Of a stretch of 64,000 nt of DNA, positions 4,007 through 63,588 are shown piece by piece. The position numbers were made by a program, and so were the translations under genes. The notes under the pieces are model-generated. The model was not told the DNA's origin. It ran no database searches and saw only the letters and a program-made list of their open reading frames with translations. Source of the DNA: Saccostrea cucullata (Eukaryota); contig NW_026934169.1 in NCBI RefSeq assembly GCF_032062105.1, positions 1-64,000 of the forward strand, in the 5' to 3' direction. The stretch's first letter is position 1. Every line of letters starts with the position of its first letter.

Positions 4007-7000
4007 TACTAGATAAAGACAATGAACTCCCTGTGGATATGATAGTTCAATACTAGATAAAGACAATGAACTCCCTGTGGATATGATAGTTCAATACTAG
4101 ATAAAGACAATGAACTCCCTGTGGATTTGATGGTTCAATACTAGATAAAGACAATGAACTCCCTGTGGATATGATGGTTCAATACTAGATAAAGACAATG
4201 AACTCCCTGTGGATATGATAGTTCAATACTAGATAAAGACAATGAACACCCTGTGGATATGATAGTTCAATACTAGATAAAGACAATGAACACCCTGTGG
4301 ATATGATAGTTCAATACTAGATAAAGACAATGAACTCCCTGTGGATATGATAGTTCAATACTAGATAAAGACAATGAACTCCCTGTGGATATGATAGTTC
4401 AATACTAGATTAAGACAATGGACTCCCTGTGTATATGATAGTTCAATACTAGATAAAGACAATGGACTCCCTGTGGATATGATAGTTCAATACTAGATAA
4501 AGACAATGAACTCCCTGTTTATATGATAGTTCAATACTAGATAAAGACAATGAACTCCCTGTGGATATGATGGTTCAATACTAGATAAAGACAATGAACT
4601 CCCTGTGGATATGATGGTTCAATACTAGATAAAGACAATGAACTCCCTGTGGATATGATGGTTCAATACTAGATAAAGACAATGAACTCCCTGTGGATAT
4701 GATGGTTCAATACTAGATAAAGACAATGAACTCCCTGTGGATATGATGGTTCAATACTAGATAAAGACAATGAACTCCCTGTGGATATGATGGTTCAATA
4801 CTAGATAAAGACAATGAACTCCCTGTGGATATGATAGTTCAATACTAGATAAAGACAATGAACTCCCTGTGGATATGATAGTTCAATACTAGATAAAAAC
4901 AATGAACTCCCTGTGGATATGATAGTTCAATACTAGATAAAGACAATGAACTCCCTGTGGATATGATAGTTCAATACTAGATAAAGACAATGAACTCCCT
5001 GTGGATATGATAGTTCAATACTAGATAAAGACAATGAACTCCCTGTGGATATGATAGTTCAATACTAGATTAAGACAATGAACTCCCTGTGTATATGATA
5101 GTTCAATACTAGATAAAGACAATGAACTCCCTGTGGATATGATAATTCAATACTAGATAAAGACAATGAACTCCCTGTGGATATGATAGTTCAATACTAG
5201 ATAAAGACAATGAACTCCCTGTGTATATGATAGTTCAATATTAGATAAAGACAATGAACTCCCTGTGTATATGATAGTTCAATACTAGATAAAGACAATG
5301 AACTCCCTGTGGATATGATAGTTCAATACTAGATAAAGACAATGAACTCCCTGTGGATATGATAGTTCAATACTAGATAAAGACAATGAACTCCCTGTGG
5401 ATATGATAGTTCAATACTAGATAAAGACAATGAACTCCCTGTGGATATGATAGTTCAATACTAGATTAAGACAATGAACTCCCTGTGTATATGATAGTTC
5501 AATACTAGATAAAGACAATGAACTCCCTGTGGATATGATAATTCAATACTAGATAAAGACAATGAACTCCCTGTGGATATGATAGTTCAATACTAGATAA
5601 AGACAATGAACTCCCTGTGTATATGATAGTTCAATATTAGATAAAGACAATGAACTCCCTGTGTATATGATAGTTCAATACTAGATAAAGACAATGAACT
5701 CCCTGTGGATATGATAGTTCAATACTAGATAAAGACAGTGAACTCCCTGTGGATATGATAGTTCAATACTAGATAAAGACAATGAACTCCCTGTGGATAT
5801 GATAGTTCAATACTAGATAAAGACAATGAACTCCCTGTGGATATGATAGTTCAATACTAGATAAAGACAACGAACTCCCTGTGGATATGATAGTTCAATA
5901 CTAGATAAAGACAATGAACTCCCTGTGGATATGATAGTTCAATACTAGATAAAGACAACGAACTCCCTGTGGATATGATAGTTCAATACTAGATAAAGAC
6001 AATGAACTCCCTGTGGATATGATAGTTCAATACTAGATAAAGACAATGAACTCCCTGTGGATATGATAGTTCAATACTAGATAAAGACAATGAACTCCCT
6101 GTGGATATGATGGTTCAATACTAGATAAAGACAATGAACTCCCTGTGGATATGATGGTTCAATACTAGATAAAGACAATGAACTCCCTGTGGATATGATG
6201 GTTCAATACTAGATAAAGACAATGAACTCCCTGTGGATATGATGGTTCAATACTAGATAAAGACAATGAACTCCCTGTGGATATGATAGTTCAATACTAG
6301 ATAAAGACAATGGACTCCCTGTGGATATGATAGTTCAATACTAGATAAAGACAACGAACTCCCTGTGGATATGATGGTTCAATACTAGATAAAGACAACG
6401 AACTCCCTGTGGATATGATGGTTCAATACTAGATAAAGACAATGAACTCCCTGTGGATATGATAGTTCAATACTAGATAAAGACAATGAACTCCCTGTGG
6501 ATATGATAGTTCAATACTAGATAAAGACAATGAACTCCCTGTGGATATGATGGTTCAATACTAGATAAAGACAATGAACTCCCTGTGGATATGATGGTTC
6601 AATACTAGATAAAGACAATGAACTCCCTGTGGATATGATGGTTCAATACTAGATAAAGACAATGAACTCCCTGTGGATATGATGGTTCAATACTAGATAA
6701 AGACAATGAACTCCCTGTGGATATGATAATTCAATACTAGATAAAGACAATGGACTCCCTGTGGATATGATAGTTCAATACTAGATAAAGACAATGGACT
6801 CCCTGTGGATATGATAGTTCAATACTAGATAAAGACAATGAACTCCCTGTGGATATGATAGTTCAATACTAGATAAAGACAATGAACTCCCTGTGGATAT
6901 GATGGTTCAATACTAGATAAAGACAATGAACTCCCTGTGGATATGATAGTTCAATACTAGATAAAGACAATGGACTCCCTGTGGATATGATAGTTCAATA

Positions 7001-7394
7001 CTAGATAAAGACAATGAACTCCCTGTGGATATGATAGTTCAATACTAGATAAAGACAATGAACTCCCTGTGGATATGATAGTTCAATACTAGATAAAGAC
7101 AATGGACTCCCTGTGGATATGATAGTTCAATACTAGATAAAGACAATGAACTCCCTGTGGATATGATAGTTCAATACTAGATAAAGACAATGAACTCCCT
7201 GTGGATATGATAGTTCAATACTAGATAAAGACAATGAACTCCCTGTGGATATGATAGTTCAATACTAGATAAAGACAATGAACTCCCTGTGGATATGATA
7301 GTTCAATACTAGATAAAGACAATGAACTCCCTGTGGATATGATAGTTCAATACTAGATAAAGACAATGAACTCCCTGTGGATATGATAGTTCAA
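4007..7394. repeat. Tandem satellite, 77 copies of a 44-bp unit (tactagataaagacaatgaactccctgtggatatgatagttcaa)
   Basis: Unit recurs at 4007, 4051, and so on; 3388 bp / 44 = 77. Only point variants, no spacers. Confidence 0.97.
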
Positions 7395-7546
7395 TTGTGT
7401 ATGCTTACTTCCCTATGACACCTGGTTCCTTTTTCTTGTTTAAGAAGAGTGTCTTTGATAGTAGTTCTTTTCCTTTGTATTTCACGTGGATTACAAAATG
7501 GACACATTTTCCATCTGTTGTAATGTAATGAAGACTAATTTGTCGT

Positions 7547-23962: not shown

Positions 23963-26900
23963 AGCACAAAGAAATTCACTTTTACATGGATACCATAATT
24001 AATTTCATTACAACATGTATTGGTAACAATCCTCTGTTAAAACTAATGTCCAAATAACTGTATCTCACTTCTATTCTCAATGACTGTGTAGTGTAGGGCA
24101 GCGCCGCGAGAATTCCATCGGCATCGAAAGCAAGTTTTTTTTTACTTGCCTAGATAGCCGAGCGGTCTAGCGCGCTGTTCCTGCACTGCTAGGAGACAGA
24201 TTCCGAAGGTCGAGAGTTCAACCCCGGGCTGGGGCGGAAGTGGGTATCCATGTAAAAGTGAATTTCTTTGTGCTTTCTATATTAATATTTCTTCACTTAG
24301 GGCAGTTATGTTAGTTTAAGAGTTGTTGTAAAATGTGCTTTATAGATAATAATTAATTTCATTACAACATGTATTGGTAACAATCCTCTGTTAAAACTAA
24401 TGTCCAAATAACTGTATCTCACTTCTATTCTCAATGACTGTGTAGTGTAGGGCAGCGCCGCGAGAATTCCATCGGCATCGAAAGCAAGTTTTTTTTGACT
24501 TGCCTAGATAGCCGAGCGGTCTAGCGCGCTGTTCCTGCACTGCTAGGAGACAGATTCCGAAGGTCGAGAGTTCAACCCCGGGCTGGGGCGGAAGTGGGTA
24601 TCCATGTAAAAGTGAATTTCTTTGTGCTTTCTATATTAATATTTCTTCACTTAGGGCAGTTATGTTAGTTTAAGAGTNNNNNNNNNNNNNNNNNNNNNNN
24701 NNNNNNNNNNNNNNNNNNNNNNNNNNNNNNNNNNNNNNNNNNNNNNNNNNNNNNNNNNNNNNNNNNNNNNNNNNNNNNNNNNNNNNNNNNNNNNNNNNNN
24801 NNNNNNNNNNNNACATTCTTTTGCCAACATGGTTTGAAACATGGCCTATAAGACTCCTGTAAGAAGACTATGAAATCAGACACAGCACTTCAGAATATGC
24901 ATTTTTACATTTTGAAAATTACCGCTTTTAATGCATTTTATAAATACCTCCTTATGTTATCCTAAATTACAGTGATGCCGGTACATTTTTTTAAATGTTA
25001 AGAATAGAACCTAGTTAGACAAGGAATCGATAATTTACGTTCAAGTATCCAACACTACTTTATTACAGAGAAAAGTATAATTAAATTTTCACCAAAAAAA
25101 CAACAGAATGGTTGATATAGAACCTGGATTAAGATGTGCTAAAATGAAGAATATTGAACCGATAGATTAAGGAATTTTGACTGTGTAAATAAATATTCAA
25201 TACAGAAAAATAAGATTGACTAGAGCAGAGATCGTTGCGAAGCAACGAGTAGGTCTTCCGTCATGTTTGACCGGAAGTAGCTTTAATTTTTAACAAAAAT
25301 GAGAAATAACGCCTAAAAATGGTTTGAATCCTCTAAAGCTATGTTAATTAATACAAAATTAAGGTATTAGATGTATAACAAGCATTGTTGAAGAATGAAA
25401 TTTTACTTTATATTTCCTTATCTTTAGTGTTTTGAGGCTTTAATTCCAAAGTTACATAAAGTTTTGTCCAGAGATATCTGAAAAAAGAAGAATTTTCAAA
25501 TCATACCCCCACTGTCGGAAACAGTGAAGAGTGTGTTATACCAGAAAAGGAATTCTGTGAAATAAACTCACTTTCAGACTTTAATTTTACGTTAGATGGA
25601 GAAAAATAACATAGACGCTTCATAATAAAAGACTTTTTTTTTAAAGTTACAATTAATAAAATTTCCACATTAAAATACGTTACTCAATGCTAAGTGTGTA
25701 TTTCTTATAAAAACAATTAATTTTTAACTTTTTTTTAATTAAAAAAAGAAAAGAATGGGCTAAAAATTTCTTTGATAGAAAATGACTCTTATCAATGTTA
25801 TACAAAAATAAAATACACAAAATATTTTTTACCAGGATATTTTGGAGTAATTTAGCATTTACTATCCCTACCCCCAGTTTTAGTATCCGTTTGCTGACAG
25901 ATAAATATAAGTTTTCATTCTCAACACTTTTAGTATGATTATGCCATACTTAAATATTGATTAAGTGTATCAAACAACATAAATAAATAAGTATAATGAC
26001 TTTTTTAACATTGTCCTTGACCTTTTAACCTAAAAAAAAACGTATTTATACACTTGTAAAGAACAATTCTGGGAGATAAAAAAAAATGTACAAGTAATCT
26101 TGTTCTTATGTTAGTTTAAAAAAGTATGGTATTTTTTCCTCATATGTACAGAGAATTGCAAAAATCATGAAAATGAAATTAATATAAATATTTATTATGA
26201 TACCCCCCCCCCCTCCATATCTATCTACTTCCAGTTTGGAACTGACGACGCCGGGCGTATTTTGACGACTTCAATAGATTAAGCATGACATTTTGAACAA
26301 CTTTTCTTCTTTGACGTATTACTAATTCTCAATTCGTTCTGATTTATAAAGAAAAAACTGTCGGCCCCTCTACCCCCCTAATTGTAAGGACCAGCCCTTT
26401 TTAAAAGATATCATTTGAAAGGTCTTGGAATTTTACACTTCTTTTATTCTATATGTTTTAACAGAATATTTCCAGTTAAAAAGATATTGTAAAGGAAGTG
26501 TTAAAAATTTTGAAATTCGGGATACGACTATTTTCGGACCATAGCGAGCGCCGACATGCGGCACTTCCGATAAAAATGAAATACTTTATACATATCTATA
26601 CACTTTGGTTTATCATACCTGAAAGTTTCATGTTTCTATCTTGAGCCATTATTGAAAAACTGTCGGACAAAATGACCCTCCAAAACTCACTAAATCGCAG
26701 AAAACTCTGAACCGGAAGTGAGATCATCAAATTAAAAAAAAAACCTCAAGTTCATTTAATTTGTCATCAATGCTGAAAGTTTCATGAAAATCCATCGACG
26801 CGTTTACGAGAAATCGCCTGCACAACATCGGTAAGAATAATAATAAGAAAAGTTGAAAAGAAACAACAGAATTATAAGACAGCCTTCCGTTGAACGGAAG

Positions 26901-33560: not shown

Positions 33561-35887
33561 TTATTCTCCACAACAGGAACTTGCGCAGCATTGTTGGCTG
33601 AAATCCTTGTCGATCTCCATCTTGACCTCTGTTGACTTGCCTGTGTCGTCATCATACGTCCGACACGAGGCAAATGGCGGGGAATAAAGATGTAAAGTAA
33701 CAGCACCTTCTGTTTGACTTTTGTTCCCGACTCTATGAAGACCTTCTGCGTCTAAATACAAGACAAGGCAAGCGTATTAGTAAACAATTATAAATACTAG
33801 TATATCATGAAGATGCCTAACAAGTAACAAGGTGCTGATAGAAGCACCAATTAAGATACAAACAATTTTTAGATTTAACTACACGATTCTAGGGACGCTA
33901 TCAAAGTACTACGGAAAAAAACGCTACTCCATCTCGACAAAAGTTTGTTAAAGCCTCATGCAATGTAGTGTAGAACTTTTGAATTTCCGAGAGAAAACAG
34001 TTGATTGGAATTTTAGAACAGATTTTGGTTATTGTTTGACTTGAATTATCCCATACTTTGCAACGCAGTAATAGTTAGGGTGATTAAAACTGGTGACATA
34101 TGTGACGCGCCAAGCAAAAACCTTCCTTATATCTATTATGACATGCAGAAGGATAAAACGTACGCTCAACTAGGACCTGGGGTCCCCCGCAAATAGTTCG
34201 TCATTTTGCGTAGTAATAAAACATTCTAGGAACTCTCCAGGCATTAAAGGCACAAAAGTAAATTCATCGATATCAATACGGAGACCTCAGGTCACCTTAT
34301 ATATTAACTGAATTTTATATGATAGACAATTTTCTTTGTCTTACTCAAAAATAATCATTTTCATAACTTTATAAAGATCAACTTTCTAATATATATATTA
34401 GCAGAAACGTGAAAATAATAAAGGGTGACTAGAGGTAACCTCATATTGTACATCAATAGGGGGACCAAAGATCACCTCACACTGTACATCAGTAGGGGAA
34501 CCAAAGGCCACCTTATATTTAACATCATTAGGGAGACCAGTGGTCACCTTATATTGTACATCATCAGAGGGATCATAGGTCACCTTACATTTTAAATTAA
34601 TAGGGGTCCAAAGGTAATCTTTTATTGCACATAATAGGGGGACCTGGGGATACCTTATATCGTACATCATTTGGGGGACCAGAGGTCACCCTATATTATA
34701 CATCAGTAGGGGGACTACAGGTAACCTAATATTGTACTGTACATCAGTAGATGGACCAGAGGACACCTTATACTATACATCTGTAGGGGGACCAGAGGAC
34801 ACCTTATATTGTACATGAGTAGGGGGGCAGAGGTCACCTTATATTGTACATCAGTAGGGGGACGAGAGGACACCTTATACTGTACATCAGTACGGGGACC
34901 AGAGGTCACCCGATATTTTACATTAGTACGGGGACTAGTGGTCACTTAATATTGTACTGTACATTAGTAGAGAGACCAGAGGTCACCTTATATTGAACAT
35001 CAGTAGTAGGACCAGAAGTCATCGTATATTGTACATCAGCAGAAGGACCAGAGGTCACTTTATATTGTACGGGGACTAGTGGTCACCTAATATGTACTGT
35101 ACATCTGTAGCGGGATCAGAGGACACCTTATATTTTACATTAGTAGTAGGACCAGAGGTCATCTTATATTGTACATCAGCAGAAGGACCTGAGGTCCTCT
35201 CTTGTATATCAATAGGGGGACCAGAGGACACCTTATACAATACATCTGTAGGGGGACCAGAGGACACCTTATATTGTACATCGGTAGGGGGACAAGGGGT
35301 CACCTTATATTGTACATCAGTAGTAGGACCAGAAGTCATCGTATATTATACATCAGCAGAAGGACCAGAGGTCACTTTATATTGCACGGGGACTAGTGGT
35401 CACCTAATATTGTACTGTACATCTGTAGCGGGACAAGAGGACACATTATATTTTACATTAGTAGTAGGACCAGAGGTCATCTTATATTGTACAGCAGAAG
35501 GACCTGAGGTCATCTCTTGTATATCAATAGGGGGACCAGAGGACACCTTATATTATACTTATGTAGGGGGACCAGAGGACTATTATTATTATTATTATTA
35601 TACAAAATTTATAGAGCGCCTTATATAATAAACACAATTACTCTAAAGCGCTGTACAACATAGTTAAAATACATTCATAAATACAACATCAAGAATAAAA
35701 ATTTTGTTGAATAGCATAAGAAAATAAAATTTAGTATTGATAACCATTTTAAAAATTAAAAATATTTTTGCAAAATGATGATTAAACGATATCAAAACAC
35801 GAAAAGAGAAAACTGCATACAATAGAGCATAAGAAATTTCAGAAGATTAAAAATAACCAAATATTTAAAGTCAAAAATCTTTAAACA

Positions 35888-35922
<35 letters not shown>

Positions 35923-38900
35923 AAAGTCTATATTTGACACTTAAAAATAAGAATTTAACCGAATGCTGACACCTTATATTGTACATCGGTAGGGGGACCA
36001 GGGGTCATCTATATTGTACATCAGTAGGGGGACCAGAGGACACCTTATATTGTACATCGGTAGGGGGACCAGGGGTCATCTATATTGTACATCAGTACGA
36101 GGACCAGAGGTCACCCGATATTTTACATTAATACGGGGACTAGTGGTCACCTAATATTGTACTGTACATCAGTAAAGGGACCAGAAGTCACCTTATACTA
36201 TACATCTGTAGGGGACCAGAGGACACCTGATATTGTACATCAGTAGGGGGACCTGAGGTCACCTTATATTGTACATCAGTAGGAGGAACAGAGTTCACCT
36301 TATATTGAACATCAGTAGGGGGACCAGAGGTCACTTTATATTGTACATAAGTAGGGGGGACCAGAGGTCACCTTATATTAAACATCTGAAGGATGAAAAG
36401 AGGTCACATATGTACATCAGCAGGGGTACCTAGGGTCACCTTTTATTGTACATCAGTAGGGGGACCAGAGGTCACCTTATATTTAACATCAGAAGGATGA
36501 CAACAGGTCACCTTATATTGTACGGGGACTAGTGGTCACCTAATATTGTACTGTACACCTGTAGCGGGACCAGAGGACACCTTATATCTAATACCAGAAA
36601 GGGGACTAGAGGTCACCTTATATTGTACATCATTATAGTGACCAGAGGTAATCTTGAATTGTACATCATTACAGAGACCAGAGTTCACCTAAAAGTGTAC
36701 ATCATTATGGGGACTAGAGGTCACCTTACATTGTACATTATTGGAGGACCAGAGGTAATCAGTGATGGACCACAGTAAATTTTATATAACATATCATTAC
36801 GGAGACCAGAGGTCACCTTATATCGTACATCATTACGGGAACCAGAGATCACCGGATATAGTGTACATCATTCCTGGGACCAGAGGTCACCTTATATTGT
36901 ACAAGATAACTGGAGCCATAGATCACCTGATATAGTGTACATAATTACCGGGACTAGAGATCGCCTGGTATATTGTACATATTTACAGGGATCAAAGGTA
37001 ACCTTATATTGCAGATCATTATGGTGACCAGAGGTCACCTTATTTTATACATCATTACAGGGACCAGAGGTCACCTTAAACTGTCACCTGATATAATTAT
37101 AGATATAATTAAATAATTATAAATTTCAAGGTCCCTGGCTCAGGGGTACCATGGAGGGATGGGGGCTCTAATTAAATACTGTAATTGAATTAATGCTTTC
37201 AAATTTATTCTTTGGTATAAACCAAATTTTTTTTATGAACAAGGGTGCCTTTTCCAAAATTGTGAAATGTATGACCCCAAAATGAGGGTTTTTATGGTCA
37301 GTGGGCACTACTTATTATTGATAATTATTACTGATTATTTGAAATGCACTTTTTTTGTTCCCCTACGCTCTATATAGGTATTATGTAGCCAAATTAAGTA
37401 TGCTAAGTACATAGTTATAATGCGCAATGGTACTTTTTTTCAAAATTGCGAATGTCATGGCCACTGGTTCAAAGCGCAAACCAAATTCAATCGGTTTAAA
37501 GTTTTTACATGATCTTCAGATGACCTATAAGACCCATAGGCCTCTTGTCGTGTTCTTATAAAAGAACCTTTGCATGGTATCCCGTTAGTATGCATTTTAT
37601 CTCTAATCTCTGATCCATCCTAATGTTCTTTTGAGATGTCTCTGGGTTACGATGGGTCCGCCTTCATATGAATTATATTTTATGTCTGGTTTCCTTAAAA
37701 ATGTACAAAATGGGAACCACTGGTGTCCCTATTTATGTACATTATAAGGTGACATCTGGCCCCCCTTGTGTTGTAAAATATAAAGTGCCCTTAGGTCCCC
37801 ATGATGATCTACAACATAAGGTGATCTTTGACCAACTACCTTATGATGTAGAAGGTGACCTGTGTTTCCCCTTATGATGTACAATATAATCTGACGTCTA
37901 GTCTGAAACAGTATAAGGTGACCTCTGTTCCCCTTTCTGTTATACAATTTAAAGGTGATCTTTAGTCTCCATAATGAAATAAAATATAAGGTGACCTTTG
38001 GTCCACCTATTCATGTACAATATTAGTTAACCTCTGATCCACCTAGTGAAGAACGTTAAAACTGACCTGAAGGCTCTGTACCCAAACTGATGTACAATAT
38101 AAGGTGACCCTGAGTCCCCAACTGATGTACAATATAAGGTGACCCCTGGTCTCCCTACTGATGTACATTAGAAGGTGACCCCTGGTCTCCCACCCATGTA
38201 CAATTTAAGGTGACTCATGGTCCCACTACTGATGCAACAAAACAAGATGACCACTGGTGACCACTGGTCCCCCTACTGATGCAGACACCATGAATACTAC
38301 TACCTCTTGTTCACCTTCTGATGTAAAGTGCTATATAAGGTGTCCTTTGGTCCCCCTACTCATGTACAATATAGGGTGACCTCAGGTAAACTTATGGTGT
38401 ATAATATAAGGTGACCTCTGGTCCCCACGATGCACAGACAAGATGACCTCTGGACCCCCTACTGATTTAAATATAAGATGACCTCTGGTCCCCTTATTGA
38501 TGTACAATATAAGGTGTCCTCTGGTCCTCCTACTGAAGTACAATATAAGTTGACCTCTGGTCCCCTACTGATGTACAATTAAAGGTGACCTCTGGTCCCC
38601 CTACTGATGTACAATATAACTTAACCCCTTGTCCCCCTACTTATGTACAATATAAGATGACCTCTGGTTCCCCTGCTGATGTACAATTTAAGGTGACCTC
38701 TGGTCCCCCTGCTGATGTACAATATAAGGTGACCCCTGGTCCCCTTACTGATGTACAATTTAACGTGACTACTTATGTACAATATAAGATGACCTCTGGT
38801 CCCCCTATTGATGTACAATATAAGGTGACCTCTGGTCCCCCTACTGATGTATTTAATCAATATTTTATTATGTAAAGTAAGATTACATTATTGGATTGGA

Positions 38901-41900
38901 CATCAGGCATGGCCTATATAAGTCCTCTCCTACTGATGTACAATATAAGGTGTTCTCTGGTTCCCTTACTGTTGTCCCCTACTGATGTACAAAATAAGGT
39001 GTCTTCTGGTCCTCCTACATATGTAGAATTCAAGGTTCCCTCTGGTCCCCCCATGTACAATAGAAGGTGCCCTCTGGTCCCCCTACTGATGTACAATATA
39101 AGGTGACCTCTGGTCCCCCTTCTGATGTACAGTATAAGGTGACTTCTGGTCAACCTAATGATGTTTTATATAAGGTGACACACTGGTCCCCCTACTGATG
39201 TACAATATTAGGTGTCCTCTGGTCCTCCTACTGATGTACAATATAAGGTGTCTTCTGGTCCCCCTACATATGTATTATATAAGGTGACACACTGGTCCCC
39301 TTACTGATGTACAATATTAGGTGTCCTCTGGTCCTCCTACTGATGTACAATATATAAAGGTGTCCTCTGGTCCCCCTACTGATGTACAATTCAAGGTTCC
39401 CTCTGGTCCCCCTACTGATGTACAGTATAAGGTGCCCTCTGGTCCCCCTACTGATGTACAATATAAGGTGACCTCTGGTCCCCCTTCTGATGTCCCCTTC
39501 TGATGTACAGTATAAGGTGACTTCTGGTCAACCTAATGATGTTTTATATAAGGTGACACACTGGTCCCCCTACTGATGTACAATATTAGGTGTCCTCTGG
39601 TCCTCCTACTGATGTACAATATAAGGTGTCTTCTGGTCCCCCTACTGATGTACAATATAAGGTGACCTCTGGTCCCCCTACTATAGCTAATGTACAATAT
39701 AAGGTTGCCTCTGGTCCGCCAACTGATGTACAAAATAAGGTGACTCCTGGTCCCCCTATTGATACACAATATAATGTGACCTCTGGTCCCCATACTGATG
39801 TCCCCTACTGATGTACAAAAGAAGGTGTCTTCTGGTCCCCCTACATATGTAGAATTCAAGGTTCCCTCTGGTCCTCCTACTGATGTACAGTAGAAGGTGC
39901 CCTCTGGTCCCCCTACTGATGTACAATATAAGGTGACCTCTGGTCCCCCTACTGATGTCCCCTTCTGATGTACAGTATAAGGTGACTTCTGGTCAACCTA
40001 ATGATGTATTATATAAGGTGACACACTGGTCCCCTTACTGATGTACAATATTAGGTGTCCTCTGGTCCTCCTACTGATGTACAATATATAAAGGTGTCCT
40101 CTGGTCCCCCTACTGATGTACAATTTAAGGTGTCCTCTGGTCCGCCTACTGATGTACAATATAAGGTGGCCTCTGTATCCCCATATAATGTAGAACAGAA
40201 GATGACACCTGGTCTTATTAACTTTTTGTTACCTCTGGTATCAGCATAAAGATTATGGGAACAAGCAGAAGTCTTATATTGTACATCAATAAGAATTTCA
40301 TACTTCACAAATTATAGTATATGAATGATACAAAGGTAATCTTATGTTGTACATTGTTACGATGTTGCTGAAAGTTGTACGTAGTTTAAAATCATTTAAA
40401 TAAATAAATTTAAATAATTTAAAATCAGGGTATGTGTAGAATTATTTTTTAAATCCTCTCCAAAAAACAGTTGCGACACTAATTTTTTGAAAATTGGAAA
40501 AAGTGCACAATTTCTCCGAGTTCTCTAAATGTATGTAGGATTGGTCAACTTGCTTGTCTTTAAATACAGTATATGTATCCCGAAAAGAAATAACGATTGG
40601 TGCATTTTTAAATTTTTATTTCTTTTTTTTAATGTAGTTCATGAATTTGATGTGTTAATTCCAGGGAAAGGGGATGAGAACTCGATGCAGCCCAAAACTT
40701 CGAAATACAGGGGGTACATCTTCTTTGTAAAATAAATAAAATCAGAGGTTTACTAAAAAATGTTAAAGTGATGAGGTCACCCATTTAATCATGATCTCAT
40801 AAGGAAGAAGAAGGAGACATTAAATAATTTAACAAATAATTATTCCATTATGTTGAAGGATCGGTGAAAAGTCCGAGCGAAATTAAGAGGTACGGGGTGG
40901 TAAGGGAAAACATCTTCCTCCTCCCCCTACTTGTTAGAGATCTGCGAATTCAGAGACTTGATGTCGTTTACTCTGAGTCGCATACCATTAGTAAGAAGAT
41001 CAGAGGTTAGGCACTGTGTTGTATAGATACTATAACCTTACATGGAATAAAATCATAGGGGAGACCACAGGTCACCTAACGTAAATCATAAATGTTAAAC
41101 GCTTATATATCATATAAAATTGCAGTTAATGTTGCTCAGCACCCACCCTCCACCCCCTCTATCTTTTCTAATACCCATCAGATGGTTATTCCTTTTAAAA
41201 AGTTGTTTGTTTTACACTGTAAAGGTTTCACAGTATTACGATTTATTCTATTTTCACTTTACGTATGCAACGCACTACATTTTGTAGCGGAGTAAACAGG
41301 CCCGATAGTCGTGAACTAGCAGGGGACCTAAGGTCCTAGTTCAGCGTACGTTTTATCCTTCTGCTTATGACATAACGCGTCTAAGTATCATTAGGACGTT
41401 AACCTGTATTCTCATCTGCCATGTGTTTAACTTCCTTGTTCAAGCAATAATAAAAACGTTATGGAGGAATTTCAGGTGAGTTTTAATGAAGTTTACTTCA
41501 CCATAATATATTCGCAAAAAAATATTTAAGTTAATAATTTTTTTTAATTAAAGATAGATATATCCGAATGAGAAAAAAAATATGTGAGAAACTTGTTGGA
41601 CCACTATACTGTCATGTTGATTGGATATCGGTACATGCAAATGCGACTTTTTCGATCGCATGCATGCATGCAGGTGTGGATTTATTTAACTTTTTTTTTT
41701 TACTTCAAATGAGAATTGTTGTATTTATATTTCAAAAAATTATACATATTATATAATCTTTGCATTTTCATTACATTATATCGAAGTGGTGCACAGGATT
41801 GATTGCCTTCATCACAAGCTCTGCGTAAGCATAATTTACGCAGAGCTCCTGGTTTTGTCAATCGAGTGATTTCTATTGACTTGTTTGATAAAATTGCGAA

Positions 41901-56600: not shown

Positions 56601-59600
56601 TTCCTGACTGCACGGAAACAGCACACGTGCACTGCGGGAAAGGGTAATTTACGTGGCATTTCTCGTGACGAGTTTGAATCTTAAAGAAAGAAAAGAAAAT
56701 ATTCAGAAATGTGCTCACAATTCATCTTTTTTTTCATTTGAATCGCTGCAAACCAAAAAATTTGTCTACATGTCTTACCTCTTGATTGTATTTCAAATTA
56801 CGGTACAGGATAAACTCCCCTGCAATATGGCTATCAAATGCCCTGTAAATTGGAGTTAATTTTCTTTTATGAATTCGCTATACAAATCACCACTTAGGAT
56901 CTCCAAGGGAGAGATTGGTTTATAAGGAAACCATTTTTATTTTCAAATCATTAAACTGTAAATTAAGAATATCTCTAATCTAGCCCTGGTTACCAGCATC
57001 ATATGAATTAAAAGTGATATGTGTTGTTTTACAATTATAGTACAATAATGTAAGACCACGTGTATTTAAACGATCTCAATAGAAAAAAAAACGAAAATTA
57101 TAAAAAAAAAAAAATATGCAATTTTTAGTTGGATTGATACTTAAAATTTCTTCTTGTTAAGTAATTTTTCTGATTATTTTTCAACTCTATTTAATTTTCA
57201 TGAAGTTTTTATTAAAAGCAAAATTCCATGGATAATTATTTTATTATTCTGAGAAGCCAGTGAATACTTTCAGTTACCGAACTCCTGATTTGTGAGCCAT
57301 GAGGATAGGATGACCTTGATATTTAAAAAAAAATGTTCTCAGAATGCTTGCATTTAAAAGTCAATCATCTTTTAAAGAAACATTTCTTACACTCCATCAA
57401 ATGTATATAAATGAGGATCAGTTTTTGAACCGCAAGATTTTCCCTTCCACATGTCGTCGTCTTCAAAAATTTCAATCTGAAAAAGATTTTTTTCCAATAT
57501 TAAACATATATATGTAAATATTTTTAATTAACAAAAGTGTTTCTGGGTGCTTACCGACATATTGTCTAGAGACATATTATGGAAAAATCCATCTTCATTT
57601 TCACTTGTTCTCAAGTGAAGTGTAGCTGTTTTGTCGATGTAATATCCATCTGAGTCAATATGATATACCGTAATGTTGTGCATTTTTCGCCATTCATCTG
57701 AGTTATACTTTCTCTTTTCGTCATAGGAATAAGCATTGATTTCAAGAGTACAGTGATCAACACCTATTGAACCTTTACAACCATTTTCTGACATAGGAAT
57801 GTTACTGTGAATCCTCAAGGAGCTGAGCGCCTTAACGGTATCATTTACCATGACTGTTGGAGTCACAAACGGAACAGTCAGATAAAAACCAATTTGAGCC
57901 TTGCCTTTCCTGGGAAGACTAATTTTAGTGTCAATCATCTGTAAGTAAAAAGTTTTTGGATGAAATGTTGCACTTGCACAAGTTTAAGGCATTAAAACAC
58001 AGATTCATGAATTGCTGTTTTATATGTAAACGATCATTCTTTCATCATTTAATATCGGTTGTTTATCCCTCCAATATAAACAAACCATGTTGATAAAATA
58101 ATCTACAGGTTTCTTAAAAAGAAATTTACCATTATCCCCGCGAAGAATAAATTACTTTCTGACATTTTGCATGGAGCAATAAGCTGATCCATTGTAGCAC
58201 CAACCTTGCAGAGTATCTAAAATTAATTGAAAAAACATTGATGAGAATAAAAATTTCAAATTTTTATTAGTTATTTGAAAAACAATTTATGTGTTTTGTC
58301 ATGAAGTTGCGCTGATTGATTTTGTGATTTCATAAAATGCATAGTTTGATTTTGAGTTTTTATTGATTATTGTCATTTCAAAAAAAATATTCGTTTATAT
58401 AATTTGTCAGATGCTTGTATAACCATAAATGTCCCTTTAATACATGTATGCAAGGGAATAGTGAGAATTGTTTCATTTAAGATCAGTGGCAACACAGATT
58501 CTGTTTTTTTAGTCCCAATCAAAGAATGTTATACATCATGTTATGACGATCGTTTATGTCAATTCCCTTCTCCACTGATATTTCACATTCTAAGCTTGAT
58601 TCGTGTCATGGTCATTACTAGTTTCAACCGCAGGATCTGGAGCAAGTCCTGAATAAACCGAGTCCAAAGTATGTATTGGAACAAAAAATATCCTCAAATG
58701 ACAAAAAAATTATCCCTCATTGACAAATGGGCCTGAGTACCGAAAATGTCAAAACTTGCAGCCTTAAAAGGCAAGTATTGGAGTAAACATTACAGAGAAC
58801 CATTCTCGAGATGTACATTTAACAATCACTAAAAAAAAGTTTAAATGCCTGCAAAGATTTTAGTTTTTTATTTTTATTTTCAGAAGAATAAACATGTTAC
58901 CTCAACTCCAGAATTTCTGTTGAAGGATATCAAATCCTGTAATGATAATGTAGAATATTTGTCAGGCGATCCTTGTAGAACCTCTGATTTGACGAGTGTG
59001 TGATTATTAACATACCACTCCACTTTGTAGAAGACTTGGTTGTTAGGGGAAGAGACAAAATTACATTTTAGATTCACTGACGGGTTGTGTATGATCTGCT
59101 TTGTTTTTCCTTCTGTTTGGATTGAAGTGTTCCAAGAGATGTTGGAGTAAGTTACTGTTATACTCTCAATATTCAATTCAACACCTAAAATGTATTTAAA
59201 AATCAGTTTAAAAATTCAAGAAGTACTTTGTGATTACGTATTTAGTTCAGTGAAAAAAAATTTGAATGGGATGTAAAACAACATATAATCAATCATTCAA
59301 AATGATCTTAATAATGTTAATTATCTTCTCACAAGAAGAGGCTGTTGTTCTGTCCTGAGTTGTTGTCATGGATTTACTGCTCACTGGATTCTCTTCAGTT
59401 GTACTTGTTTTTATTGTTGGTGCAGCTGTACTAGTTGTTTGTTCTTGTGTTGTTGTTGTGGGTGCAGCTGTACTTGTTAATTGAACTTTTGTTGTGGGTG
59501 CAGCTGTACTTGTTAATTGAACTGTTGTTGTGAGTGCAGCTGTACTAGTTGTTTGTTCTGTTGTTGTTGTGGGTGCAGCTGCACTAGCTGTTGTTGTGGG

Positions 59601-62600
59601 TGCCGCTGTACTAGTTGTTGTTGTGGGTGCAGCTGTACTAGATGTTTGTTCTGGTGTTGTTGTTATGGGTGCAGCTGTACTAATTGTTTGTTCAGTTGTT
59701 GTTGTTGTGGATGCAGCTGAACTTGTTGTTGTGGGTGCAGCTGTACTAGTTGTTTGTTCTGGTGTTGTTGTTGTGGGTGCAGCTGTACTAGTTGTTTCTT
59801 CATTTGTTGTTGTTGTGGGTGCAGCTGTACTTGTTGTTGTGGGTGCAGCTGTACTTGTCTGTTCTTGTGTTGTTGTTGTGGGTACAGCTGTACTAGTTGT
59901 TTGCTCTGGTGTTGTTGTTGTGGGTGAAGCTGTACTTGTTGTTGTTGTGGTGGGTACAGCTGTACTTGTTGTTGTTATGGGTGCAACTGTACTAGTTGTC
60001 TGTTCTGGTGTTGCTGTTGTGGGTGCAGCTGAACTTGTTGTTGTTGTGGGTACAGCTATACTAGTTGTTTGTTCAGTTGTTGTTGTTGTGGGTGCTGCTG
60101 TATTGGTCGTTTGTTCTGTTGTTGTTGTTGTGGGTGCAGCTGTACTAGTTGTTTGTATTGTTGTTGTTGTTGTGGGTGCTGCTGAACTAGTTGTTTGTTC
60201 AGTTGTTGTTGTTGTGGGTGCTGCTGTACTTGTTGTTGTTGTGGTTGCAGCTGTACTTGTTGTCTGTTTTTGTTTTGTTGTTGTGGGTACAGCTGTACTA
60301 GTTGTTTGTACTGTTGTTGTTGTTGTTGTTGGTGCAGCTGTACTTTCTTCTGGTGTTGTTTGTGCAGCTGTACTTGTTGATTTAGGGTAGTTGTAGATTC
60401 TGATGCAGTTGTTAATTGTATGGTTGTTGTTTGTACCATTGATGTTGTTGTGCATTCTAAAATGTAAATATATAAAAAAAAACTTCTTTTTAATTTGATC
60501 ACTGAAAACAATCTTTTAAACAATGCATCCATTTTTTTTTTACAAATGATCGGTGAAAACTATCTTTTTAAATATATATATATAATGTAATTTTTAAACC
60601 TACCAATTGAAAATAATTATTGTAAGCGTTTTAGTCAAATATATATATAAAGTTATCTTCGTTAGAATTTCACATAGTTAACAACCAGTTCAACTTGCTT
60701 AAAGTATCGTCCAAGAAGTATGTACATGTACAATGATTTTTTTTAAATGACTTAATGAAAAGTTTCTTTTTCAGGTTAAAATCCCAAAGAAAGAATTGAA
60801 ATATCTCTATACAGTTACCTGGACTAAAAGACCATATACTCTGTCCCAAAGATGTATTGCAGTAATAACAGTCATTGGTAACATTCTTCTGTCCATTTGC
60901 CAAACACCGGTTATTGATTTCACAGTATTCTTAAACGTCAAATAATATAGTTTTGATATTAAATACTAATACAGTAGATATGCTTAAAATCAATATTGTT
61001 AACTGTGTCTTTTTTATATAAAGAGTAAAAAAGGGTCTACTTTGTCAACACAGTCTTAAGAAATCTGAAAGAAGGTCATTTCAAAGGTACCTGGGTTTTT
61101 ACTCCAGGAAAGTTGATTGGTAGTTACGTTACAATGATGGCAGAGATATGAAGAATTTGTGCCTCCATCCACAAAACATCCATCGTTAATAAGACAATAA
61201 TCTGTAAATAAATTTTTCACGTAAAAAAAAGCCTGGGGCACATTTTTTATAGACGTTCTGTTCAATCACATACATATACCTTAATTTTGGTTGCATGTGA
61301 ACAGTTTTGAAAATGACTTTTATAAAAGAAGCTATAAGGATTTCTTCTTAATTGCTTGTTAACAAAATTCTCCTTCATTCTTATTTAATTCTTAATAATT
61401 GTGCGGTTTTTTTTGGTTATATCTGCTTAAGGACCATCTCTACACAAGTGCAAATTTTTTTTTGGACTTTGAGAAAAATATATTGTATAAAGGGGTTTAT
61501 ATGGAGGTTATTTATTTAAGTTTCACTGTATGGTGCATGGTTTTTACCCCTGGGAAAAATGTTCAAAGACAACATACTATCCCTGAATAGAAATCACTGT
61601 TAATTACTTAAATAGAGAAAATACATGCAAATAACATGTTCAATTAATTTATCTTGGCCTTTAAAATGTTAAGAATACTTAAATTAATTACAAATTGAGT
61701 TATATATTGTAAATTTCATTTTTAGAGAAAATACATGCAAATAACATGTTCAACTAATTTATCTTATCTTATCTTATCTTATTGTAGTTTCATTTTTTTT
61801 AGAATTTAGATCTAAGTGTATATCACTCTTACTCAAGAAAAATTCCTAAGAATCAGAACTCTTTAGTGTGCAGTGTAGAGAGGGTTCTTAAACTAAAACA
61901 CAAGGAAACAGCCTGTCCACGATTGGCAAGGAAATTCCTTCCTTAAAGCTGAACGCTTCACCAAAATAGGCACGGTCAGAGGATGTATGAACCGTTCGCT
62001 TTCGTTACACCCGATTGCACACTTGAAACTCGTGGCCGACACGTGTACTCCTTTCGTGGTCTTCGATTTTGTGCGTTTATTTCTTGTTTTCATGTGCATT
62101 TTCTGTTTGTAAATAATGTATTGACCTGTATCTTTTCATGATACTTTTCCGCTGTTTTGGAGAAAATACGTAAAATTCGTTAATTTCATCGAGATTGAGT
62201 AGCAAGAAGTGTAAGATGTACGTCTACACACGTCGGATCTCTACAGTGAAATACAGTGAACTGATTAGCGATCTGCTTCTTATATACGGGTTGTAGGGAG
62301 ATCGTACAAAAACAGGAAATATAGCGGACTTTGCCTATTTACGGGTAGTGTTCAGCTTTTATCATAATGAAAATTATTAATTAGGTCTCGACTGATATGA
62401 AAATAATTAGCCGAGAATTCGAAAAAAAAAAAATGACACCCCCTCCACCCTCACAAAATCAAATGGTCATCCCCTTAAATGGTAATTTTAGAGCTTCTAA
62501 CATTGCTTGGTGCCTTTGTTTACTGTGAACTTAAATAAAAATGAGTGTGTTCTTACCTTTCTTTAACTGCCATTGTGTTGTACTGATACTGGAGTTACAT

Positions 62601-62924: not shown

Positions 62925-63588
62925 ACAAGAGACCCATGGGCCTTATAGGTCACCAGAGCATCATGCACCAACTTTCAAATGATTGAATTTGGTTCATGTT
63001 TTAAGCTAGATGCTATGACATTCACAATTTTGAAAGAGGCACCATTGCTTATCATAACTATACACTTAACAACTGCTCAGTTTGTTTACTTAATACCCAT
63101 AAGCAGAGAAGGGGAACAAAAATGCATTTCAACCAATCAGGAGTATTCAGCAATAATCAGAAGTGCCCCTACCACACATGAAACCCTGACCTTATGTCTA
63201 CACATTGCACAATTTTTGAAAAGGCACACTTGCGTATCAAAAATGTTTGATTCATACCAAAGAGCAGATTTCAAACAATTCATTTTCAGTATATAAGTAG
63301 AGCCCCCCTCCCCCTTTGGTATCTCTGACCCAGGGGCCTTGAAATTTTCAATTCTGGAAGAAGAGCCCTTGCACACCATAACTATATAGGAGGTTCATCT
63401 GCTTATTACCCAGGAGTAGAGAAAAAGATTTTCATAGATGTAATGTATTTTCACTATATGATTATAATAAAGCTACGCCTAACACATTAACCCCTGACCC
63501 TGGAGCCATACAATTCACAATTTTGGAAAAGGCAATCTTGCTCATCATAACTTTCTACTTAATTAGTTTATCAAATACTTTGGAACAC

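What the first reader, a model, noticed from the sequence alone, without database searches (positions are those of the whole stretch)
34136..41373. Intact-ended 7.2-kb foldback transposon made of inverted 36-bp arrays
Seen: 43-bp TIRs, an exact 9-bp TSD, and about 2.5 kb of 36-bp repeats on each side in opposite orientation around a ~0.6-kb spacer. Each unit contains the palindrome GACC-N3-GGTC, which also forms the inner end of the TIR (GACC-TGG-GGTC). Established: modular inverted arms with a 9-bp TSD characterise Foldback/Mutator-type elements. Inference: the minisatellite is an amplified transposase-binding site and the element spreads this satellite. It may be an undescribed bivalve family.
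Basis: partly seen in the sequence, partly recalled or inferred. Interest (0 to 1): 0.7.

Follow-up and report, generated by a model that had tools for sequence, protein, structure and literature searches.

The report
Gene-less satellite-armed foldback transposon family
This 7.2-kb insertion is one of a few hundred copies of a gene-less jumping element whose two halves carry facing arrays of a 36-base repeat; it is likely moved by a Mutator-type enzyme made elsewhere, a design already described in beetles, flies and mosquitoes.

Summary
The element is real. It spans 34145-41364, has 43-bp TIRs (40 of 43 identical) and an exact 9-bp duplication. Four paralogues of the repeat it interrupts carry that 9-mer once. 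The TIR 21-mer has 570 exact hits in the assembly, and 27 of 34 paired copies have exact 9-bp TSDs. All 31 copies profiled (6.3-19.3 kb) keep both opposed 36-bp arrays around a variable centre, and no transposase was found in any. No autonomous partner was found, but four other loci in this genome have MULE-domain exons between opposed minisatellite arrays with different units. Corrections: the palindrome is exact in only 29 of 97 units; arrays fill about 65% of the element; a 0.39-kb foreign repeat splits the left array; the two arms evolve independently. The binding-site idea is plausible but untested. Best reading: a non-autonomous Rehavkus/Tetris-like Mutator foldback family, a new member of a known kind. 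Dfam and Repbase could not be checked. The scan already reported what appears to be this family on another piece of this genome (e1-9896407).

The parts
34136..34144 (.). Left copy of the 9-bp target-site duplication
   Evidence: Identical to 41365-41373; four paralogous host-repeat copies carry the 9-mer once, with one substitution
34145..34187 (+). Left TIR (43 bp; similarity reaches 46 bp), with GACC-TGG-GGTC at 34174
   Evidence: 40 of 43 identical to right TIR; contigs and reads of all four laid runs have unlike loose ends at 34144/34145
34188..34421 (+). Family-specific left subterminal region, with a solitary motif copy GACC-TCA-GGTC at 34283 and a short TA run
   Evidence: 89-97% identical in the 13 other copies; motif; 270 left-type ends in the assembly
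34422..35580 (+). Left 36-bp array, first part (about 29 units)
   Evidence: TRF period 36, 32.4 copies; unit map
35581..35967 (.). Unrelated 0.39-kb interspersed repeat inserted in the left array, (TAT)n at one end; not part of the family
   Evidence: Absent from 13 other copies; 40 of 40 scored candidates match elsewhere, best 97%; also in the haplotig copy
35968..37080 (+). Left 36-bp array, second part (about 22 units)
37081..37730 (.). Non-coding centre, a deletion form of the 2-5 kb centre of other copies; holds a decayed piece of the 168-bp satellite seen at 63407
   Evidence: 96-97% to L031 and L045, partial to others; no hit to 95 long ORFs from MULE/Mutator loci; satellite match E 4e-10
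37731..40183 (-). Right 36-bp array in opposite orientation (about 50 units, with a 465-bp higher-order duplication)
40184..41321 (.). Family-specific right subterminal region, with a solitary motif copy GACC-ACA-GGTC at 41063
   Evidence: 78-96% to other copies, internally deleted in several; motif; 227 right-type ends
41322..41364 (-). Right TIR (43 bp), with the motif at 41325
41365..41373 (.). Right copy of the 9-bp TSD
34098..34135 (+). First bases of the host repeat that the element interrupts; it continues after 41373
   Evidence: Left and right flanks are colinear in four paralogues at 85-98%

Best explanation
This is one copy of a gene-less TIR transposon family with 9-bp target duplications and two opposed 36-bp arrays, likely moved by cut-and-paste by a Mutator-type (Rehavkus-like) transposase made elsewhere. 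Shown: precise ends, 9-bp TSDs at unrelated sites, a few hundred copies, no coding core, deletion classes shared by unlinked copies, and arms that evolve separately. Inferred: the transposase cleaves at the 43-bp TIRs and inserts with a 9-bp stagger. It likely also binds the GACC-N3-GGTC motif repeated in the arrays, which would favour array retention and growth. Arrays likely change in place by slippage, unequal exchange or conversion, and centres likely shrink by incomplete gap repair.
For: 27 of 34 paired copies have an exact 9-bp TSD; in the 25 of these where lengths up to 12 were scored, the best length was 9. Paralogous empty sites carry one 9-mer. 570 exact and 750 near-exact TIR hits. 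MULE-domain elements of this genome make 9-bp TSDs: 6 of 19 long-ORF loci show TIR plus 9-bp TSD. Four PF10551-positive loci lie between opposed arrays of 21, 55, 71 and 127 bp, which ties this architecture to MULE cores in the same genome. All 25 TSD-bearing copies profiled keep at least 22 units per arm while centres range 0.66-5.7 kb, and none of 35 exact-TIR pairs is under 6.2 kb. The motif is exact at 4 non-array sites with four different spacers, and 0 times in the other 56.8 kb of the window. Precedents: Muta1 subterminal repeats raise binding and excision (PMC5499845 passages); Rehavkus inverted termini with up to 50 repeats (PMC12581902 passages) and 9-bp TSDs (PMC6446971 supplement).
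Against: No autonomous partner was found. None of 96 PF10551 and 114 PF20700 hits lies inside a copy when set against 256 of 270 left ends, and further MULE-exon relatives share no contig with them. None of 71 widely read transposase loci carries the TIR or unit. These searches score only top candidates (150 of 210; 114 of 1464). The palindrome is no better conserved than the rest of the unit, and about a third of units break it at one position. TIR-unit similarity is 13 of 15 bases, p 0.006-0.04, post hoc. 7 of 34 pairs lack an exact TSD. The TIR is short for a typical MULE (over 100 bp per PMC5499845), though 14-500 bp is reported (PMC6446971). No two of 31 copies are identical at their ends (closest 0.3-0.7%), so current activity is not shown.
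Confidence: 0.8

Rival explanations
1. Same non-autonomous MULE-type family, but the arrays are passengers: a motif from the subterminal region was amplified by slippage and carried along, with no role in transposition.
For: No excess conservation of the palindrome in 1585 units. Arm sizes within a copy are uncorrelated (r -0.13). Arrays differ faster than neighbouring DNA between two haplotigs. All copies might descend from a few array-bearing masters.
Against: Several deletion classes spread by transposition (centres of 0.66, 0.94 and 2.7 kb; a 0.37-kb right end), yet none dropped an array. The motif recurs with varied spacers in TIRs and subterminal sites. Binding to internal repeats was shown for Muta1 (passages) and Galileo (abstract).
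Confidence: 0.4
2. A foldback element mobilised by a transposase of another superfamily that can give long TSDs (Merlin, P/Galileo-like, hAT, or an unclassified group).
For: No partner found. Foldback structure arose in several superfamilies; Galileo is P-type (PMC3169594 passages; PMC4079207 discussion). Other superfamilies were not searched in this genome.
Against: TSD is strictly 9 bp; hAT gives mostly 8 bp and MULE 8-10 bp. The same architecture surrounds MULE exons at four loci of this genome.
Confidence: 0.15
3. Not a transposon: an inverted satellite duplication or an assembly artefact with a chance flanking repeat.
For: The assembly holds haplotig duplicates, and repeat arrays are hard to polish.
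Against: Same ends and layout at more than 30 unrelated sites with different 9-bp TSDs; empty paralogous sites; the same terminus with many unlike flanks in public runs.
Confidence: 0.01

Closest known systems
Rehavkus elements (MuDR-related; Tribolium Rehavkus-1_TC, -3_TC and TfSat06/TfSat25 carriers; PMC12581902 passages, PMC6446971 passages and supplement rows)
   Same: [quoted passage not shown]
   Different: No transposase or PHD finger in any copy seen here; 36-bp unit; oyster-like host (Rehavkus is listed for insects and a leech); no free long satellite array seen; no sequence comparison was possible.
Tetris of Drosophila virilis (PMC4079207; abstract and first part of Discussion read)
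   Same: Non-autonomous foldback with no partner found; 8-10 bp TSD; repeat unit shares a stretch with the outer TIR; alleles differ in unit number.
   Different: Tetris has 220-bp units, three complete copies and escape into long satellite arrays. Here there are hundreds of copies with 20-100 units per arm and short TIRs set off by asymmetric unique DNA.
Muta1 of Aedes aegypti, type 2 foldback MULE (PMC5499845 passages)
   Same: 8-9 bp TSD, a palindromic motif in the terminus, subterminal repeats; gives the tested mechanism for repeat-enhanced binding and excision.
   Different: Muta1 has 9 copies of a 12-bp repeat inside a 145-bp symmetric TIR and an active transposase; here the arrays are kilobases long, start 0.28-1.2 kb inside, and the arms are not homogenised.
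Tm1 of root-knot nematodes (PMC3169594 passages)
   Same: Composite inverted ends, 9-bp TSD in most copies, mostly non-autonomous, Mutator/Foldback class.
   Different: Much smaller elements; a Phantom-like transposase copy was found there.
Helitron/Helentron-borne oyster satellites such as Cg170/HindIII (PMC11136912 and PMC8268682 passages; PMC7492417 search listing only)
   Same: Dispersed satellite-like arrays carried inside mobile elements in oysters.
   Different: Those are central repeats of rolling-circle elements; here there are two opposed arrays, TIRs and a 9-bp TSD.

Membership tests
TIR cut-and-paste DNA transposon, non-autonomous | Terminal inverted repeats at precise, conserved ends | tested here: met
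   boundary also in public runs
TIR cut-and-paste DNA transposon, non-autonomous | Fixed-length TSD at unrelated sites; empty site with one copy | tested here: met
   27 of 34 exact 9-bp; four paralogous empty sites. An orthologous empty allele was not seen.
Mutator (MULE) superfamily | 8-11 bp TSD | tested here: met
   9 bp; range from PMC6446971
Mutator (MULE) superfamily | MULE DDE transposase in the element or in a partner with the same TIRs | tested here: inconclusive
   None in 31 profiled copies; no partner among scored hits; searches incomplete
Mutator (MULE) superfamily | Long TIRs (typically over 100 bp; 14-500 bp reported) | tested here: inconclusive
   Simple TIR is 43-46 bp; long only if the opposed arrays are counted
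Foldback structure (Tetris/Rehavkus/Muta1 type) | [quoted passage not shown] | tested here: met
   31 of 31 profiled copies, 20-103 units per arm
Foldback structure (Tetris/Rehavkus/Muta1 type) | Long near-identical mirror arms | tested here: not met
   Nearest-unit distance between arms of one copy 4.44 versus 3.4-3.5 for the same arm of other copies; unique asymmetric subterminal DNA
Foldback structure (Tetris/Rehavkus/Muta1 type) | Repeats bind the transposase | not testable with these tools
   Only indirect: motif recurrence and array retention against flat conservation
Rehavkus | Transposase with PHD finger, phylogenetically in Rehavkus | not testable with these tools
   No coding copy; no Rehavkus protein was available as a query
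Catalogued Repbase/Dfam oyster family or named oyster satDNA | Sequence match to a catalogued consensus | not testable with these tools
   No such library; the supplement of PMC11136912 with monomer tables could not be read

The most novel reading that the evidence does not exclude
Oyster-like genomes hold an undescribed radiation of satellite-armed Mutator foldbacks (at least five unit types here: 21, 36, 55, 71 and 127 bp), a second route to dispersed satellites beside Helitrons. In this family the kilobase arrays are obligatory, fast-evolving transposase-binding platforms, which is why it never shrinks to a MITE.
Probability: 0.3. Interest if true: 0.5.

Novelty: new member of a known kind. 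Interest (0 to 1): 0.3.

Why it matters
It is a clean, high-copy example of a satellite carried in the arms of a TIR transposon, in a group where the papers read stress Helitron-borne satellites. By a rough estimate (285 end pairs x median 107 units x 36 bp) the arrays make about 1 Mb, near 0.1% of the assembly, haplotigs included. Hundreds of copies with varied array sizes and deletion classes would allow a test of whether subterminal repeats are needed for mobility in nature. The mechanism class is known, so it is not surprising to a specialist.

Tried and rejected
Partner search: PF10551 and PF20700 scans, flanks of 71 transposase loci read widely, intersection with 256 left ends, two exon queries and tblastn of 95 ORFs against 14 copies: nothing. 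Long ORFs in or beside copies were nested retroelements, other genes or had no Pfam family; ORFs inside arrays are repeat read-throughs. No tRNA gene inside the copies scanned (the one hit lies in a flank) and no Rfam family in five loci. Homogenisation between the two arms: rejected. Extra conservation of the palindrome in units: not seen. Relation of the 36-bp unit to units of the MULE-bearing arrays: best p 0.018 of 22 tests, not significant. RNA reads over the left end are few (depth 0-15 per strand bin) and give no sign of an element transcript. Run X5, labelled as another organism, holds both end types, but its flank is about 98% identical, so I do not count it as cross-species evidence. 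Literature searches listed no paper on this family; absence from print is not shown.

Full report
Observation. The element runs from 34145 to 41364 (7220 bp) between two copies of TTATGACAT. The TIRs match at 40 of 43 bases. Inside are 0.28 kb of unique left end, a forward 36-bp array (34422-37080) split by a 0.39-kb unrelated repeat, a 0.65-kb centre, a reverse array (37731-40183) and 1.18 kb of unique right end. Arrays are about 65% of the length. GACC-N3-GGTC is exact in 29 of 97 ungapped-scored units and within one mismatch in 71, so 'each unit' overstates it. The window's only N run (24678-24812) lies outside the finding.

Family. The TIR 21-mer has 570 exact hits (reversed control 0) and 750 with up to two mismatches; 270 are left-type and 227 right-type ends. 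The assembly includes haplotigs, so distinct insertions are fewer. I examined 34 paired copies including the window: 14, 17, one and two. Of these, 27 have an exact 9-bp TSD; the 7 misses include near matches (8, 7 and 6 of 9) and one damaged TIR. The haplotig copy of this locus is not counted. End sequences of 31 copies differ by 6.4% (left) and 9.7% (right) on average, closest 0.3-0.7%; left and right distances correlate (r 0.43). The element interrupts another repeat: four paralogues join the two flanks with one copy of the 9-mer, plus 10 bases missing from the window copy. Public runs show the same terminus with many unlike flanks.

Interior. Centres are 0.66-6.0 kb of shared non-coding patchwork, with pieces of the 168-bp satellite also seen at 63407. 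No transposase was found in any copy; large copies owe their size to nested retroelements. All 31 profiled copies keep both arrays, and the 25 with TSDs have at least 22 units per arm. Deletion classes recur at unlinked sites (centres of 0.66, 0.94 and 2.7 kb; a 0.37-kb right end), so they were mobilised after deletion, yet no array-less class appeared. The 35 exact-TIR pairs on contigs up to the end of the listed right ends (100 of 227 listed) span 6.3-19.3 kb; 6 of them are known by coordinates only. One copy without a right array was seen (L166), and it has a clipped left TIR.

Array evolution. Units of one arm resemble the same arm of other copies more than the opposite arm of their own copy (distance 3.4-3.5 versus 4.4). 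The haplotig copy differs at 22 of 2278 bases in the left arrays but at 2 of 3653 in the interleaved unique DNA and left flank. On the right it differs at 3.1% in the array versus 0.9% in the end and about 1.3% in the flank, with unit-sized indels. This fits turnover in place, but polishing error in repeats is not excluded. Of the first 100 of 644 exact unit hits, 69 lie within 14 kb of an exact TIR (my count); of the other 12 places, 11 show family ends or centre. No free long satellite array was seen in that sample.

Which enzyme. A 9-bp TSD points to Mutator (PMC5499845 and PMC6446971, passages). In this genome 6 of 19 long-ORF MULE loci show TIRs with 9-bp TSDs. Of 10 short-frame MULE loci read over 18-38 kb (8 chosen because they had an array nearby), 4 sit between opposed arrays of 21, 55, 71 or 127 bp; no TIR or TSD was detected for them. 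None shares this TIR or unit, and no scored MULE or Mutator hit lies inside a copy. The class is therefore inferred from TSD and architecture, not shown.

Binding-site idea. For: the motif is exact in both TIRs and two solitary subterminal sites with four different spacers and absent from the rest of the window; arrays are always retained; binding to such repeats was shown for Muta1 (passages) and Galileo (abstract). Against: flat conservation across the unit with the palindrome's T the weakest position, and a modest post hoc similarity. I put it at about 55%.

Comparison. It works like Rehavkus (PMC12581902 passages; PMC6446971 passages and supplement rows), Tetris (PMC4079207 abstract and first part of Discussion), Muta1 and Tm1 (PMC3169594 passages). 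Membership in Rehavkus cannot be tested without a coding copy. Oyster satellite papers (PMC11136912, PMC8268682, passages) stress Helitrons and list two MuDR-linked monomers of other sizes; the bivalve survey PMC10294476 (passages) has no occurrence of 'foldback'. The unreadable supplement of PMC11136912 could hold this monomer. That the host is an oyster rests on recalled likeness of the 168-bp repeat to Cg170 and on earlier AI notes, not on a test.

Verdict. A real, well-supported non-autonomous foldback family of likely Mutator type; a new member of a known kind. The scan's note e1-9896407 describes a 7331-bp element with the same features, the length of copy L215 here. Interest 0.3.

Noticed in passing
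G000 C21207, C12452, C21707, C10283 (L264, L259, L266, L238 and flanks): MULE-domain exons, 50-54% identical to the first of them, each lying between opposed minisatellite arrays (55, 21, 127, 71 bp units) 9-16 kb apart: candidate coding satellite-armed Mutator families.
   Followed up: partly
L150/L151, L161, L157/L173, L154, L166, L176: Several copies lack the outer 8-26 bases of one or both TIRs while the rest is intact, which may be scars of cleavage at the ends.
   Followed up: partly
window 34098-34135 and from 41374; L093-L096: The host repeat starts TGTGACGCGCC, often after AT-rich or TA-run sequence; its first 45 bases have very high depth in public runs, and a paralogue runs into an acidic coding-like stretch. 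Probably another DNA transposon.
   Followed up: partly
window 35581-35967: A 0.39-kb interspersed repeat with a (TAT)n end and many full-length copies, SINE-like in shape.
   Followed up: partly
L187, L152/L153/L170/L171: The TA run in the left end is hit by other elements: an LTR retrotransposon in one copy and a tandem array of 3.6-kb units with a 1078-aa OTU-domain ORF in another.
   Followed up: partly
L049, L050 (also C6879, C12705): Tandem duplication of the left end (97 bp apart in three contigs, 558 bp in one).
   Followed up: no
L158 8289-8300: Two right ends face each other about 10 bases apart, suggesting insertion next to a sister copy.
   Followed up: no
L037/L038 centre, about 1150-1230: A tRNA-like stretch with recalled A-box and B-box look; ARAGORN and Rfam did not call it.
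   Followed up: partly
window 4007-7395: Very homogeneous 44-bp array, 77 copies, 98% matches.
   Followed up: no
window 59289-60515 (minus): 408-codon open frame over a GTT-rich repeat, mucin-like by composition; no Pfam family.
   Followed up: partly
window 33625-33704: An 80-base stretch matching an abundant spliced transcript at about 86%, probably an exon of a paralogous gene.
   Followed up: no
L102-L129: A young PF20700 Mutator-like family with many near-identical 686-689 aa frames, often several per contig about 4.1 kb apart.
   Followed up: no
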